A stretch of DNA of 64,000 nucleotides, from positions 480,001-544,000 of the forward strand of contig OZ245033.1 of NCBI GenBank assembly GCA_965224025.1. The letters run 5' to 3'. The DNA is from Candidatus Multivorans sp. (GTDB taxonomy: Bacteria; Acidobacteriota; Thermoanaerobaculia; Multivoradales; Multivoraceae). Position 1 is the stretch's first letter. The number at the start of each line of letters is the position of its first letter. A model generated the notes under the pieces. The model saw only the letters and a program-made list of their open reading frames with translations. It made no database searches and had not been told where the DNA came from. This document shows, piece after piece, positions 54,376-57,585 of the stretch. Position numbers and translations under genes: made by a program.

Positions 54376-54690
54376 ATGCTGATTGCGACCACAGAGACGA
54401 TTGCCGGCCGGAACATCACCGAGACTCTGGGGCTCGTGCGCGGCAACACGATCCGCGCGCGACACGTGGGCAAGGACATCACCGCGGCCCTACGCAACCT
54501 GGTCGGCGGCGAGGTCACCGAGTACACCAAGATGGTGGCCGAGAGCCGCGAGCAGGCGCTCGACCGGATGGCCGCCCAGGCCGAGAGGCTCGGCGCCGAC
54601 GCCGTGGTCGCCGTGCGCTTCACGACCTCCGTGATCACGAGCGGCGCCGCCGAGCTGCTGGCGGTGGGGACGGCGGTGAAGCTGGACTAG
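54376..54690 (+). CDS. YbjQ/UPF0145 family protein
   Basis: LGLVRG, LVGGEVTEYT, REQALDRM...A..LGADAVV, GTAVKL. Confidence 0.93.
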   Translation: MLIATTETIAGRNITETLGLVRGNTIRARHVGKDITAALRNLVGGEVTEYTKMVAESREQALDRMAAQAERLGADAVVAVRFTTSVITSGAAELLAVGTAVKLD

Positions 54691-54692
54691 AT

Positions 54693-54738
54693 CCAGACCG
54701 GCGCTCCGCGCCGGATGCCGGCCGGAGGCCGGCGTACC
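54693..54738 (+). repeat. Left part of the REP-like copy interrupted by IS110 (right part CCCAGC at 56445-56450)
   Basis: CCAGACCGGCGCTCCGCGCCGGATGCCGGCCGGAGGCCGGCGTACC aligns with the 52660 copy. Confidence 0.85.
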
Positions 54739-54802
54739 TGTACCTTTCTCGGGTGGATTCTGGTGGGTCGTTGAGAGAGGTGGAATCGACCAGTAGCCGT
54801 CG

Positions 54803-54898
54803 CGGCTGCGGTAGCTGTGGGAAACCGGCTTGCCGGTTTTCCAAGGTCCGGCGGGAACGGTCTGCCGTTTTCCGCGGGACCGGCAGCTTCCGCAGCCG
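54803..54898 (+). ncRNA. Three-way-junction structured domain in the IS110 5' non-coding region
   Basis: Outer stem 54803-54817/54884-54898 (14 of 15 pairs) enclosing hairpins 54818-54843 and 54845-54881. Confidence 0.55.
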
Positions 54899-54947
54899 AG
54901 ACCGCCGGTCGGTTGCGTCTCCGGCCTGCCGGAGTCACTGAAGGAAA

Positions 54948-55102
54948 GTCGGCAAGCAGCCAGGAGCGACCACCGGCGTACTGTGCTTCGAGCACCTGGC
55001 TGGGACCCGTGCCCTGGCTGCTTCGCCGCGTTGGACGCCCAGTGGAGAGTCAGTGCCTTAGAGCACCAGTACAGGTACGGGCAGGCAACGCGGCATGCCG
55101 AC
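54948..55102 (+). ncRNA. IS110 bridge RNA core (target-binding and donor-binding loops)
   Basis: Guides CCGGCGTAC (54973-54981), GCTGGG (54999-55004), GTGGAGAGTC (55042-55051) and GTACAGG (55069-55075) match the target flanks and element ends; closing stems present. Confidence 0.9.
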
Positions 55103-55137
55103 CAGGCAACACTACCGCAAGGGAGAAGGAGGACGAG

Positions 55138-56390
55138 ATGACCAGGACGTGGTTCGTCGGCGTGGACTGGGGGTCCGAGACCCACCACGTGTGTGTGCTG
55201 GATCGGGACGGCAAGGTGAGGGGGGAGCGGGCGTTCGACCACAGCGGCAAGGGACTTGCCGCCATGGCCGACTGGCTCCTTGGACATACCCGACCGACGT
55301 CTCCGGACGAGATCGGCGTCGCCATCGAGGTGCCGCACGGACCGGTGGTCGAGACTCTCCTGGAGCGGGGCTTCGCCGTGCATTCGATCAACCCCAAGCA
55401 GCTCGACCGCTTCAGGGACCGCTTCTCCGTCGCCGGCGCCAAGGATGACCGCCGCGATGCACGGGTGCTCGCCGCCGCGCTTCGCACCGACCCCGAGTGC
55501 CTGAACCGCGTGCAACCATCCGATGCCGCCATCGTCATGCTGCGCGAGGTGTCCCGCGCCCGCAAGCAGTTGGTCAACCAGAAGAACCGCCTGGAGAACC
55601 AGGTCCGCGACCAGCTCTGGCGCTACTACCCGCAGTTTCTCGCCGTGGTCAAGAACGAGGTGTCGGCGCCCTTCGCGCTGGCCTTGTGGCGACTGGCGCC
55701 GACCCCCGGCAAGGCTCGACGGCTGCGCGAAGCCACGCTCGCCAAACTGCTCAAGGAACACCGCATCCGGCGCCTGACCTCCGCCCAACTGCGCGATCAA
55801 CTGCGGGCCGAGCCGATCGCCGTTTCCCCGGACACCGTTAAGGCCGCCGTCGAACACATAGGACTCCTCCGGCCGGTGCTCGACACCGTCTGCCGCCAAC
55901 TCGCCGACGCCGACAAGCGGCTGGAGCGGATGACCCGCGCACTCGAGGCCCCGGCCCAACGGGAAAACGACGACGACTCCCCTAAGCCGAGCGACGCCGC
56001 CATCCTCAGGTCGCTGCCCGGACTCGGCAAGGTCGGCCTCGCCACCCTGCTCTCCGAGGCCGATCAAAGCCTGGGCCGCAGAGACCACGAGGCACTGCGT
56101 TGCCTCTGCGGAGTGGCGCCGGTGACCGTCAAGTCCGGCAAGAAGCTCATCGTCATGCGACGACTCGCCGCCAACGAACACCTCAGCGACGCCGTCTATC
56201 ACTGGGGACGAGTCGCCATCCAGCACGACCCGATCAGCCGCGCCAAGTACGACGCCATGAAAGCCCAGGGAAAGACGCACGGACGCGCCATCAGACAACT
56301 CGTCGACCGACTCCTCGGCGTCGCCTGCGCCATGCTCCGAGGCCGACTCTCTTCGACCCCAACAAGCGATGCCATGCCCAGGTCGCATGA
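55138..56390 (+). CDS. IS110 DEDD recombinase/transposase (1-nt frameshift near 56345, in the last ~15 codons)
   Basis: VGVDWG, AIEVP, KDDRRDA, SLPGLG, GVAPVTVKSGK; RBS AGGAGG; the likely native tail TLFDPN..* is in the shifted frame. Confidence 0.93.
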
Positions 56391-56425
56391 CCTCCCTGAC
56401 CCGCAGCAGCCTCCCCAAAACACAC

Positions 56426-56431
56426 TTGCTA
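56426..56431 (+). promoter_or_regulatory. -35 half of the IS110 circle-junction promoter
   Basis: TTGCTA lies exactly 17 bp from TACCTT (54741-54746) once the ends are joined through CC. Confidence 0.75.
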
Positions 56432-56451
56432 AAGGGTGGAGAGTCCCAGCA

Positions 56452-57585
56452 TCACTCGCCGCTTCGCGGCTCGTTGCGCAGGCTCATCCGCTCCAGCACG
56501 CCCGCGACGAGCAGCGGCCACACCAGGGTGGCATCGGCGGGAACTTCGGCGAAGCGGCCGCCTTCGGAGGCGGGGACGAACTTGCCCCAGGACACCCCTT
56601 CGCTGTAGCCGCAGCCGGAGAGGCCGCCCCAATGCTCCGGTTCCGGGCAGATGCGGACGCCGTAGCGGAAGCGCTGGGGATCGGCTTCTTCGCCGTCCCG
56701 GCGCGCCGCCGCCTCGAGATAAGGCGCGACCTGCTGCGCCCAGTTCCGCGGCACGCCGCCGCCGATCGTGAAGATGCCGAGCCGTACAGCGCCGGAGACG
56801 AGGTCCGTGTAGTGCTCCAGGTCGAGGAAGGGATCGAAGCGAACCGGCGCCAGCCCGCGCTGGCGGCGCGCCCGATTGAACAGCGCGAAGTCGAGTCCGA
56901 TCTCCGAGTCCGTGAACGCGGGCACATAGACGGGGACGCCACGGCGCCAGGCGGAGGAAAGCACACCGCGCACCGGCCGGTTCTGGCCCGGCTCCGCCTC
57001 CGCCGGTGAACCCTCGCCTTCGCCCAGCCACCGCCCGAACGCCTCGTTCAGAGTCCGCGAACAGGCGACCTCGCCCTCCGGCCACTGCTCCAGGATGGCG
57101 TGGACGATGAGCTCAACCCGGTCCAGGTTGCTCTCCAGCTCCAGCGTGTCGTAGATGCGGTCGAAACCGGCGTAGTACGCGGAGCGGTCGTCCAGCGCGC
57201 CGTCGCCCGCCGGGACCTTGAAGTGGACCATGCCGGCGGACTCGACGAAGCCGTGGACCATCAGGGCCCCGGTGCAGACGATCGCGTCGAGCAGCCCGTG
57301 GTCGATCATGTCGCACAGGACGAGCCCCTGCTTGGCCGCGGTCAACGCGCCGGTGAACGTGCCGACCACCAGGCAGTCCGGATCCACAGCCATGTCATGG
57401 AGCACGTCCGCCGCCTCGCCAAGCTGACGGCCCCCGAAGGAGGTCGACTTCATCGCCGCGAGCAGATCCGAGAAGGACTCGACGGAGCCCAGATCGAGAG
57501 CCTCGAGCGGTTCCAGTCCTTGGCCGTCGCCGAACTCGGTCGGGCGACGCGCGCCGCCCGAGGACTTGGAAGGTCGATCGCTCAT
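56452..57585 (-). CDS. Deoxyhypusine synthase-like protein
   Basis: SFGGRQLGEA, CTGALMVH, DRIYD, VPAFTDSEIG, GGGVPRN, GGLSGC..SEGVSWGK, DAT. Confidence 0.9.
   Translation of the reverse strand: MSDRPSKSSGGARRPTEFGDGQGLEPLEALDLGSVESFSDLLAAMKSTSFGGRQLGEAADVLHDMAVDPDCLVVGTFTGALTAAKQGLVLCDMIDHGLLDAIVCTGALMVHGFVESAGMVHFKVPAGDGALDDRSAYYAGFDRIYDTLELESNLDRVELIVHAILEQWPEGEVACSRTLNEAFGRWLGEGEGSPAEAEPGQNRPVRGVLSSAWRRGVPVYVPAFTDSEIGLDFALFNRARRQRGLAPVRFDPFLDLEHYTDLVSGAVRLGIFTIGGGVPRNWAQQVAPYLEAAARRDGEEADPQRFRYGVRICPEPEHWGGLSGCGYSEGVSWGKFVPASEGGRFAEVPADATLVWPLLVAGVLERMSLRNEPRSGE

What the first reader, a model, noticed from the sequence alone, without database searches (positions are those of the whole stretch)
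54948..55102. Readable bridge RNA: one loop encodes the target, the other the element's own ends
Seen: stem AGCAGCCAGG/CCTGGCTGCT encloses CCGGCGTAC (identical to the left flank, 54729-54737), hairpin GTGC-TTCGA-GCAC and GCTGGG (reverse complement of the right flank CCCAGC, 56445-56450). Stem CCGCGTTG/CAACGCGG encloses GTGGAGAGTC (identical to the right end, 56436-56445), hairpin GTGC-CTTAGA-GCAC and GTACAGG (reverse complement of the left end CCTGTAC, 54737-54743). GTCGGCA/TGCCGAC closes both loops. Established: IS110 elements such as IS621 use such bispecific RNAs for programmable recombination. Inference: this is a distinct orthologue with a CC core rather than the CT of IS621, target CCGGCGTACCCAGC and donor GTGGAGAGTCCTGTAC, and it should be reprogrammable.
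Basis: partly seen in the sequence, partly recalled or inferred. Interest (0 to 1): 0.95.

Follow-up and report, generated by a model that had tools for sequence, protein, structure and literature searches.

The report
Bridge RNA of an IS110 element
This is a real bridge RNA gene inside a jumping gene of the IS110 family in a soil-type bacterium, working by the RNA-guided recombination mechanism described in 2024, so it is a further example rather than a new kind of system.

Summary
Window 54739-56446 is an IS110-group insertion sequence with a CC core. Its recombinase has the DEDD and Tnp domains. Its 399-nt left end holds a 155-nt two-loop RNA at 54948-55102. The host genome has 12 full-length copies, and the RNA model finds 16 hits. 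The target is a REP-like hairpin foot with 51 unoccupied sites.

Of 92 loci from this and other genomes, 83 gave both flanks, in 21 guide classes. Left guides match left flanks at 135 of 147 positions and right guides at 85 of 105. None of 20,000 re-pairings reached either value. Thirteen of 36 stem pairs show compensatory changes. The handshake bases described for IS621 are present and co-vary.

Expression, protein binding and reprogramming are untested. The window's copy has a frameshifted recombinase tail, and 10 paralogues are intact.

Verdict: observation confirmed and interpretation supported. It is a new member of a known kind (Durrant 2024; Hiraizumi 2024). Modest points of difference are the CC core, a stem closing both loops, and a natural one-base guide polymorphism.

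The parts
54739..56446 (+). IS110-group insertion sequence, counted with one copy of the CC core (the other core copy is 54737-54738). No terminal inverted repeats and no target duplication beyond the 2-nt core.
   Evidence: 12 full-length copies in the genome share exactly these ends. The overlap of occupied junctions with empty sites is CC.
54717..54738 (+). Left half of the target. REP-like hairpin GCCGGCC-GGA-GGCCGGC (54717-54733), whose 3' arm runs into the left target CCGGCGTA (54729-54736) and the core CC (54737-54738).
   Evidence: 10 of 13 occupied sites and 31 of 51 empty sites have a perfect stem of 6 bp or more ending in the left target.
56445..56450 (+). Core CC plus right target CAGC.
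   Evidence: It is the reverse complement of the right target guide GCTGGG.
54739..55137 (+). Non-coding left end (399 nt). Holds the right-donor sequence TGTAC, a roughly 123-nt leader module, and the bridge RNA gene.
54948..55102 (+). Bridge RNA gene (155 nt). A closing stem (54948-54954 with 55096-55102) encloses the target-binding loop module (54955-55022), a 3-nt linker, and the donor-binding loop module (55026-55093).
54973..54981 (+). Left target guide CCGGCGUAC. Position 54979 is U or C among the paralogues.
54999..55006 (+). Right target guide GCUGGG (54999-55004), followed by the 2-nt handshake guide AC (55005-55006). AC is complementary to donor positions 6-7 (GT) and not to the element's own target.
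55042..55051 (+). Left donor guide GUGGAGAGUC, identical to the right end 56436-56445.
55069..55077 (+). Right donor guide GUACAGG (55069-55075), followed by the handshake guide UA (55076-55077). UA is complementary to target positions 6-7 (TA) of this copy's own flank.
55138..56390 (+). Recombinase gene, with a ribosome-binding site AAGGAGG at 55126-55132. In this copy a 1-bp deletion near 56345 shifts the frame for the last 17 codons. The normal stop at 56388-56390 is then out of frame and the frame runs on into the flank.
56426..56446 (+). Right end: a -35-like hexamer TTGCTA (56426-56431), AAAGG (56431-35; inverted repeat of CCTTT at 54743-54747), the left donor GTGGAGAGT, and the core CC.
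   Evidence: TTG stands at this fixed distance from the core in every one of the 83 right ends recovered.

Best explanation
Window 54948-55102 encodes the bridge RNA of an IS110-group insertion sequence (54739-56446).

Inferred mechanism, by homology with IS621:
- The element excises as a circle, which joins the right end to the left end across the CC core.
- The left end is transcribed into an RNA with two internal loops.
- The DEDD/Ser recombinase binds this RNA as two dimers.
- The first loop pairs with the target. [quoted passage not shown]
- The second loop pairs with the donor junction. [quoted passage not shown]
- The top strands are cut after the core and exchanged.
- The 2-nt handshake bases (AC after the right target guide, UA after the right donor guide) then pair with the incoming strand and drive the exchange forward.
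- The Holliday junction is resolved.

The natural target is the 3' foot of a GC-rich REP-like hairpin that is repeated about 60 times in the genome.

Shown here: the anatomy, the protein family, the copy number, the target family, the stem covariation, the guide-flank covariation and the handshake complementarity. Inferred: transcription, RNA-protein binding, circle formation, catalysis and reprogrammability.
For: (1) Protein.
- Pfam DEDD_Tnp_IS110 at 1.1e-34 and Transposase_20 at 1.3e-12.
- NCBIfam NF033542 'IS110 family RNA-guided transposase' at 177.2 bits against a cut-off of 140.
- phmmer finds the IS621 transposase of PDB 8wt6 at E 7.6e-12. D10, E64, D104, D107 and S333 align to its DEDD and Ser residues.

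(2) Anatomy.
- Left end 399 nt, right end about 54 nt, RNA in the left end, 2-nt core.
- This is the IS110-group layout described in PMC11208160.

(3) Guide geometry.
[quoted passage not shown] Guides of 6 and 7 nt are its reverse complement on the 3' side.
- The paper gives 8-9 nt and 4-7 nt.

(4) Structure.
- 13 of 36 consensus pairs carry compensatory changes.
- 97.9% of cells are paired, against 33-42% in slid controls. 0 of 500 shuffles reach four of the five measures, and 3 of 500 the fifth.

(5) Guide-flank covariation.
- 92 loci were examined, 90 parsed, and 83 gave both flanks, in 21 guide classes.
- Left: 135 of 147 matches, against a mean of 81.6 and a maximum of 112 in re-pairings.
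- Right: 85 of 105 matches, against a mean of 43.1 and a maximum of 68.
- 0 of 20,000 re-pairings reach either observed value.
- Examples: GAAAAGG with CCTTTTC, GGGGAGG with CCTCCCC, GGGAGGG with CCCTCCC, GACAAGG with CCTTGTC.

(6) Conservation pattern. The donor guides are nearly invariant while the target guides vary. PMC11208160 reports the same.

(7) Handshake bases, for the 84 of the 90 parsed loci that gave a reading.
- The target-loop handshake AC is the reverse complement of donor positions 6-7 in 73 of the 77 loci whose right end was found. The other 4 have AU. In 7 more loci the right end was not found.
- The first donor-loop handshake base pairs with target position 7 in 83 of 84 loci, through U:A, G:C and C:G.

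(8) Activity.
- 12 full-length copies at 97-100% identity, 10 of them with an intact 417-aa frame.
- 16 RNA-model hits in the genome.
Against: - There is no evidence of transcription. No RNA run holds the stretch.
- The strict sigma-70 scan finds no promoter in the integrated element, nor at a natural right-end/left-end junction in L087.
- The junction hexamers are weak: TTGCTA, a 17-nt spacer, then TACCTT, which matches TATAAT at only 3 of 6 positions.
- In this lineage the RNA starts about 210 nt inside the left end, behind a leader of foreign origin. An internal start or RNA processing would therefore be needed.
- The window's own recombinase is frameshifted near its end.
- Some copies sit in sites that do not fully match their own guide. 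L002 has C in the guide and T in the flank. Most right flanks read CCCAGT against a guide that predicts CCCAGC, which needs a G:T wobble.
- Three loci break the right-flank rule: L103 at 0 of 5, and L104 and L087, where the right end is followed by a left-end sequence.
- Rfam 15 has no family that matches, so no curated RNA model backs the call.
Confidence: 0.93

Rival explanations
1. A relic copy. The RNA gene in the window is intact, but this copy can no longer move by itself because its recombinase is frameshifted. It would depend on the recombinase of the intact paralogues, or it is simply decaying. This rival concerns the copy, not the nature of the RNA.
For: - Compared with 11 paralogues, this copy has a 1-bp deletion near 56345, which replaces the last 17 residues and removes the stop.
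- It also has a 1-bp deletion at 54855.
- Every contig that covers these places in three public runs carries the extra base.
- PMC11208160 shows that a bridge RNA can act in trans.
Against: - Both deletions lie in A-runs (AAA to AA, and AA to A). They could be consensus errors of a long-read assembly.
- The change spares both Pfam domains, which cover residues 7-165 and 288-371.
- The RNA itself differs from its paralogues only at positions that are also polymorphic among them.
Confidence: 0.35
2. The folded region is only a regulatory 5' leader of the recombinase mRNA, for example for translational control or stability, with no role in choosing DNA sites. Target choice would be made by the protein.
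For: - It lies directly upstream of the ribosome-binding site and no terminator separates it from the gene.
- Small RNAs have been proposed to modulate recombinase expression in ISPpu9, as cited in PMC11208160.
Against: A leader has no reason to carry host flank sequence. Yet the loop sequences change together with the flanks in 21 guide classes, and 0 of 20,000 re-pairings reach the observed match. This holds on both strands in the published geometry, and includes the handshake bases.
Confidence: 0.03
3. The matches are chance, or a by-product of GC-rich REP-like repeats that occur both inside and outside the element.
For: The genome is 67.6% G+C. Motifs like CCGGCG are common, and the target is itself a repeat.
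Against: - In other lineages the guides are not GC-rich repeats (GAAAAGG, CAAATGG, GTGATAGCC) and they still match their flanks.
- The permutation control keeps composition and still fails to reach the observed matches.
- The stems co-vary.
Confidence: 0.01

Closest known systems
IS621 of Escherichia coli and its bridge RNA (Durrant et al. 2024, PMC11208160; Hiraizumi et al. 2024, PMC11208158; structures 8wt6-8wt9)
   Same: - DEDD plus Ser recombinase.
- RNA encoded in a long left end.
- Two pseudo-symmetric stem/internal-loop/hairpin modules of similar size: 68 and 68 nt here, 65 and 68 nt in IS621.
- The first loop reads the target and the second reads the donor.
- 5' guides pair with the bottom strand and 3' guides with the top strand.
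- A 2-nt core, and 2-nt handshake guides after each 3' guide.
- A conserved donor loop and a variable target loop.
- The target is a REP-type repeat.
- A -35-like hexamer sits in the right end.
   Different: - The protein is only distantly related (phmmer E 7.6e-12, 48 bits).
- The core is CC, not CT.
- A 7-bp stem closes both modules into a three-way junction. Two of its three modelled pairs show compensatory changes in 7 of 30 sequences each. The linker is 3 nt, where IS621 has an 11-nt linker (nucleotides 99-109) and an open arrangement, as far as the text read tells. I could not see the figures.
- The RNA starts about 210 nt inside the left end, behind an acquired leader.
- The recombinase is longer: 417 aa, against a 328-residue PDB chain.
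IS622 / ISCro4 of Citrobacter rodentium (Perry et al. 2025 preprint, 10.1101/2025.05.14.653916; structure 9t56)
   Same: Same system. It uses 14-nt target and donor recognition around a core at positions 8-9, with handshake guides (passages read). The protein is found at E 4.3e-10.
   Different: ISCro4 uses CT or GT cores and has been tested in human cells. Nothing has been tested for the present element.
ISPpu10 of Pseudomonas putida (preprint 10.64898/2026.03.19.712850, abstract and outline read)
   Same: It inserts into many copies of one conserved intergenic sequence whose GC-rich 5' extension forms a stem-loop. Here too the left target is the 3' foot of a GC-rich hairpin, in 10 of 13 occupied and 31 of 51 empty sites.
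   Different: Whether the hairpin contributes to recognition here is untested. 3 of 13 occupied sites lack a perfect hairpin of this kind.
IS1111-group elements and seekRNA
   Same: The same recombinase family and RNA-guided site choice (PMC11208160).
   Different: IS1111 elements carry the RNA in a long right end and have long subterminal inverted repeats. Here the RNA is in the left end, the right end is short, and the subterminal repeat is at most 5 bp (AAAGG/CCTTT).

Membership tests
IS110 family (IS110 group) bridge-RNA recombination system | Recombinase with an N-terminal DEDD RuvC-like domain and a C-terminal Tnp domain | tested here: met
   PF01548 at 1.1e-34 (residues 7-165) and PF02371 at 1.3e-12 (residues 288-371). 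NF033542 at 177.2 bits against a cut-off of 140.
IS110 family (IS110 group) bridge-RNA recombination system | Catalytic D, E, D, D and Ser residues conserved | tested here: met
   D10, E64, D104, D107 and S333 of the intact paralogue align with the corresponding IS621 residues in the phmmer alignment to 8wt6_A. The IS621 residue numbers D102 and S241 come from PMC11208158. The remaining IS621 numbers are recalled.
IS110 family (IS110 group) bridge-RNA recombination system | No terminal inverted repeats. Insertion by conservative exchange at a 2-nt core present in both target and donor. | tested here: met
   Occupied junctions overlap the empty 14-mer by exactly CC. All 83 recovered right ends finish in CC and all left ends follow CC.
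IS110 family (IS110 group) bridge-RNA recombination system | Left end longer than right end, and RNA encoded in the left end | tested here: met
   Left end 399 nt, right end about 54 nt, RNA at 54948-55102.
IS110 family (IS110 group) bridge-RNA recombination system | Two stem-loops with internal loops, supported by covariation | tested here: met
   13 of 36 pairs compensatory, 97.9% of cells paired, and the slid and shuffled controls fail.
IS110 family (IS110 group) bridge-RNA recombination system | The first loop's guides match the target and co-vary with it. The 5' side pairs with the bottom strand and the 3' side with the top strand. | tested here: met
   135 of 147 and 85 of 105 matches, with 0 of 20,000 re-pairings reaching them.
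IS110 family (IS110 group) bridge-RNA recombination system | The second loop's guides match the joined right end, core and left end, and are more conserved than the first loop | tested here: met
   In one search the right end was located by searching for the left donor guide, so that match is partly by construction. Independent support: the ends found this way coincide with the ends of paralogue similarity.
IS110 family (IS110 group) bridge-RNA recombination system | Handshake guides: mismatched with the cognate DNA, and complementary to positions 6-7 of the other DNA | tested here: met
   84 loci read. AC matches donor GT in 73 of the 77 loci whose right end was found. The first base of the donor-loop handshake pairs with target position 7 in 83 of 84. 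Both bases pair in 40 of 84.
IS110 family (IS110 group) bridge-RNA recombination system | A promoter is rebuilt across the circle junction | tested here: inconclusive
   TTG sits at a fixed distance in all 83 right ends, and reads TTGACA in some. But the -10 is weak (TACCTT), and the strict scan finds nothing, including at a natural junction in L087.
IS110 family (IS110 group) bridge-RNA recombination system | The RNA is expressed, binds the recombinase, and is required for and reprograms recombination | not testable with these tools
   No RNA run is listed. No wet experiment was possible.
IS621-like subgroup | CT core | tested here: not met
   The core is CC in all 83 loci. This excludes membership of the close IS621 subgroup, but not of the family.
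Rfam RNA family | Match above the gathering score to a curated covariance model | tested here: not met
   only chance-level hits (E 0.39-9.1, all far below the gathering scores). Nothing reached threshold for any family of Rfam 15.

The most novel reading that the evidence does not exclude
This acidobacterial clade is a distinct architectural subtype of bridge RNA. It has a strictly conserved CC core and a closing stem that ties both loops into a three-way junction.

Within one genome, a single U/C polymorphism in the left target guide tracks a T/C polymorphism of the REP target:
- Copies with guide U sit in T sites 4 times out of 8.
- Copies with guide C sit in T sites 1 time out of 26 (Fisher p = 0.007; the copies are not independent).
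- The fully matched site variant is occupied in 3 of its 4 copies. The major variant has 38 empty copies and 7 occupied by full-length copies.

This would mean each copy's own RNA is used preferentially in cis, and that one mismatch measurably shifts site choice in nature. The clade would also offer a natural CC-core enzyme for sites that CT or GT tools cannot reach.
Probability: 0.3. Interest if true: 0.45.

Novelty: new member of a known kind. Interest (0 to 1): 0.3.

Why it matters
The finding confirms that a reader working from raw sequence alone can recognise a bridge RNA and read off its four guides correctly.

Biologically, it shows an active RNA-guided insertion sequence family in Acidobacteriota. 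Related copies are found in MAGs named Candidatus Multivorans, Thermoanaerobaculia and Vicinamibacterales, plus one Azospirillum. I found no paper in the library that discusses bridge RNAs in this phylum.

Practically, it offers a distant orthologue with a natural CC core, intact paralogue genes and a well-defined natural target. This could widen the set of addressable core dinucleotides. The IS621 work tested CT, AT, GT and TT cores.

It does not change the understanding of the mechanism.

Tried and rejected
- Rfam scan of 54600-56600 at E up to 10: only chance-level hits.
- Strict sigma-70 and terminator scans: no promoter in the integrated element or at the natural junction in L087. Only two weak terminator-like sites, on the opposite strand inside the gene.
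- Search of the whole genome for a right-end/left-end circle junction: 0 hits.
- Public runs: no RNA holder listed.
- Contigs of four runs laid on 54500-56700: fragmented at the repeat, with no contig bridging an empty site or a circle junction. The back-joint 56473 to 54711 is a REP-to-REP arrangement, not an element junction. No use is made of cover or depth.
- Within-genome guide/flank association alone: weak, at 2/1/2/8. It becomes suggestive only when two related genomes are added, and the copies are not independent.
- The subterminal inverted repeat AAAGG/CCTTT co-varies in L072 (AACGG/CCGTT) but not in several other lineages. I treat it as weak.
- Helix 4 of the consensus (2 pairs inside the right target guide) shows no compensatory change. 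I regard it as a folding artefact.
- Supplementary tables of Durrant 2024 and Perry 2025 are closed. They list thousands of IS110 orthologues and 72 tested ones, and may already hold this clade or other CC-core elements.
- Literature searches: 'CC core' with 'bridge RNA' gave 0 papers. 'IS110' with 'Acidobacteria' and 'bridge RNA' gave 0 papers.

Full report
OBSERVATION.
- The outer stem is GTCGGCA 54948-54954 with TGCCGAC 55096-55102.
- The first module is closed by AGCAGCCAGG 54955-54964 and CCTGGCTGCT 55013-55022. It holds CCGGCGTAC (54973-54981), a GTGC-TTCGA-GCAC hairpin and GCTGGG (54999-55004).
- The second module is closed by CCGCGTTG 55026-55033 and CAACGCGG 55086-55093. It holds GTGGAGAGTC (55042-55051), a GTGC-CTTAGA-GCAC hairpin and GTACAGG (55069-55075).
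- The four loop strings equal, or are the reverse complement of, the left flank (54729-54737), the right flank (56445-56450), the right end (56436-56445) and the left end (54737-54743).
- The 155-nt stretch folds into exactly this shape at -79.2 kcal/mol, z = -4.14 against 200 shuffles.

WHAT SURROUNDS IT.
- A frame starting at ATG 55138, behind an AAGGAGG site, encodes a protein with Pfam DEDD_Tnp_IS110 (1.1e-34) and Transposase_20 (1.3e-12).
- The intact paralogue scores 177.2 bits on NCBIfam NF033542 'IS110 family RNA-guided transposase', against a cut-off of 140.
- By phmmer it finds the IS621 transposase of PDB 8wt6 (E 7.6e-12) and the ISCro4 transposase (4.3e-10). D10, E64, D104, D107 and S333 align to the catalytic residues.
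- The neighbours are ordinary genes: a YbjQ-family protein upstream and deoxyhypusine synthase downstream on the other strand.

COPIES AND ENDS. The window is part of a 5.14-Mb, 67.6% G+C genome in 3 contigs.
- The element has 12 full-length copies at 97-100% identity, plus truncated ones. All share the same two ends.
- The other full-length copies are 1711-1713 bp, against 1709 here.
- The window's copy lacks one A at 54855 in the non-coding left end. It also lacks one base near 56345, which replaces the last 17 residues and removes the stop.
- Ten of the 12 copies keep an intact 417-aa frame. The twelfth (L012) has a 2-bp insertion early in the gene, and my script did not score it.
- Both deletions in the window are in A-runs, so an assembly error cannot be excluded.
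- Of 81 variable alignment columns among the 12 copies, only 3 fall in the 155-nt RNA. One of these (54979, T/C) lies inside the left target guide.

TARGET.
- Left flanks read GCCGGCG(T/C)AC and right flanks read CCCAG(C/T) or CCCGGT.
- The genome holds 51 unoccupied sites matching CCGGCG[CT]ACCC[AG]G[CT]. Of these, 38 are exactly CCGGCGCACCCAGT.
- Occupied junctions overlap the empty site by the two bases CC, which is therefore the core.
- The left target is the 3' foot of a GC-rich hairpin (in the window GCCGGCC-GGA-GGCCGGC, 54717-54733). This holds in 10 of 13 occupied and 31 of 51 empty sites.
- The element therefore targets a REP-like repeat, as known for IS110 elements (reference list and text of PMC11208160; ISPpu10 abstract).

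HOMOLOGUES AND THE DECISIVE TEST. The intact recombinase retrieved 80 loci from other genomes at 93% down to 56% identity. The hosts are MAGs named Candidatus Multivorans, Thermoanaerobaculia and Vicinamibacterales, one Azospirillum canadense, and one MAG labelled Gammaproteobacteria.

The region upstream of each gene aligns over the whole RNA.
- The donor guides are nearly invariant (GTGGrrAGTy and GTACAGG), while the target guides differ between lineages. This is the pattern reported for IS621 relatives.
- I built a covariance model from the alignment. On its alignment of 50 hits (30 distinct sequences), 97.9% of cells are paired, against 33-42% when the partners are slid. 0 of 500 shuffles reach four of the five measures, and 3 of 500 the fifth.
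- The closing stem has two pairs with compensatory changes, each in 7 of 30 sequences.

I then parsed 92 loci: 12 from the window's genome and the 80 from others.
- Two failed: L076 has a disrupted first loop and L105 has no second loop.
- In 7 more the right end was not found. That left 83 loci with both flanks, in 21 guide classes.
- Left guides match the 7 non-core flank bases at 135 of 147 positions. Re-paired classes give a mean of 81.6 and a maximum of 112.
- Right guides match 85 of 105 positions, against a mean of 43.1 and a maximum of 68.
- 0 of 20,000 re-pairings reach either value.
- Exceptions: L103 (right flank 0 of 5), and L104 and L087, where the right end is followed directly by a left-end sequence.

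HANDSHAKE BASES. Hiraizumi et al. describe 2-nt handshake guides just 3' of the right target guide and the right donor guide. These must mismatch their own DNA and pair with positions 6-7 of the other DNA after strand exchange.
- In the window, the right target guide is followed by AC, the complement of donor GT. The right donor guide is followed by UA, the complement of TA in this copy's own left flank.
- 84 of the 90 parsed loci gave a reading. AC matches donor GT in 73 of the 77 whose right end was found, and 4 have AU.
- The first donor-loop handshake base pairs with target position 7 in 83 of 84 loci, through three pair types (U:A, G:C, C:G). Both bases pair in 40 of 84.

WHAT IS NOT SHOWN.
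- No RNA run holds the stretch, and laid contigs were uninformative.
- A junction promoter is plausible. TTG stands at a fixed distance from the core in all 83 right ends, and reads TTGACA in some lineages, followed by a 17-nt spacer and TACCTT in the left end. It fails the strict scan.
- In this lineage the RNA begins about 210 nt inside the left end.
- The intervening roughly 123 nt are 84-87% identical to sequence next to an istB (IS21-type) gene elsewhere in the genome. They are missing from two otherwise complete copies and from the Vicinamibacterales relatives. The module therefore looks acquired and dispensable.

COMPARISON AND NOVELTY.
- The system matches the IS621 bridge RNA paradigm feature by feature (see the membership table).
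- It differs in three ways: the CC core, the closing stem with a 3-nt linker, and great sequence distance.
- The RNA model finds 16 copies in this genome. It finds matches in 4 of 151 sampled genomes of the phylum, this genome included, so the subtype is patchy.
- PMC11208160 states that bridge RNAs were predicted in 85.7% of ISfinder IS110 elements and gives thousands of RNA-target pairs. Another member is therefore expected.
- I found no paper pairing 'CC core' with 'bridge RNA'.

A SMALL NATURAL EXPERIMENT. This pools the window's genome and two close relatives.
- Copies whose left guide has U lie in T-type sites 4 times out of 8. Copies with C lie there once in 26 (Fisher p = 0.007). The copies are related, so the figure is only indicative.
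- U can pair with either variant, using a wobble with the G of the bottom strand. C pairs with only one.
- The site variant that matches the window's guides perfectly is occupied in 3 of its 4 copies. The major variant has 38 empty copies and 7 occupied by full-length copies.
- This hints at preferential use of each copy's own RNA and at single-base discrimination in nature.

VERDICT. This is a genuine bridge RNA, a new member of a known kind, with modest interest (0.3). What I read of each paper:
- PMC11208160: passages.
- PMC11208158: passages.
- 10.1101/2025.05.14.653916: passages.
- 10.64898/2026.03.19.712850: abstract and outline.
- All others: search listing only.

Noticed in passing
window 54791-54913 (element positions 54-176); G000:C1:3672584-3672706, 4048787-4048918, 2474161-2474283, 1301954-1302035 (L018-L021): A roughly 123-nt module in the left end carries two tandem hairpins (GGGAAACCGG..CCGGTTTTCC and GGGAAACGG..CCGTTTTCC). 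It is 84-87% identical to sequence at four other loci. At L018 it lies about 50 nt after an IstB_IS21 gene (2.6e-77), in the opposite orientation. It looks like a piece of an IS21-type end captured in the IS110 leader.
   Followed up: partly
G000:C1:3853425-3854994 and 598908-600480 (L013, L014): Two otherwise complete copies lack about 75-80 nt of the left end, including the hairpin module, but keep the bridge RNA and both ends. The module therefore seems dispensable.
   Followed up: partly
G000:C1:4322357-4322573 (L017): A solitary bridge-RNA fragment (98% identity to element positions 158-358) with no recombinase gene or element ends beside it. Its right donor guide reads GTGCAGG instead of GTACAGG.
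   Followed up: partly
L087 and L104 (right end about 1829 and 1656 nt after the left end): The right end is followed directly by CCTGTAC, which is a right-end/core/left-end junction in a chromosome. This suggests tandem copies, or an insertion into a donor-like site.
   Followed up: no
L062, L065, L068, L070, L080 (about 3.79 kb) and L084 (about 2.55 kb): In some Vicinamibacterales loci, the first right end matching the donor guide lies 2.5-3.8 kb from the left end, instead of about 1.8 kb. These could be elements with extra cargo, or nested or tandem copies. Compare the listing of preprint 10.64898/2026.08.14.744561.
   Followed up: no
whole genome G000; for example window 54697-54733: A REP-like repeat family: a GC-rich hairpin followed by GCACCCAGT. 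It has 51 unoccupied 14-mers, often preceded by a second palindrome (ccggcgc-ttc-gcgccgg). A second hairpin type (CCGTGCGCCCG..CGGGCGCACGG) precedes the same 14-mer at several sites.
   Followed up: partly
L076 and L105: Two Vicinamibacterales copies have the 5' part of the bridge RNA replaced by unrelated sequence, while the recombinase gene still matches. They are probably decayed or rearranged copies.
   Followed up: no
window 54855 and 56345: In three public runs, every contig covering these places carries the extra base that the window's copy lacks. The contigs probably derive from the other copies, so this does not settle whether the deletions are real.
   Followed up: partly
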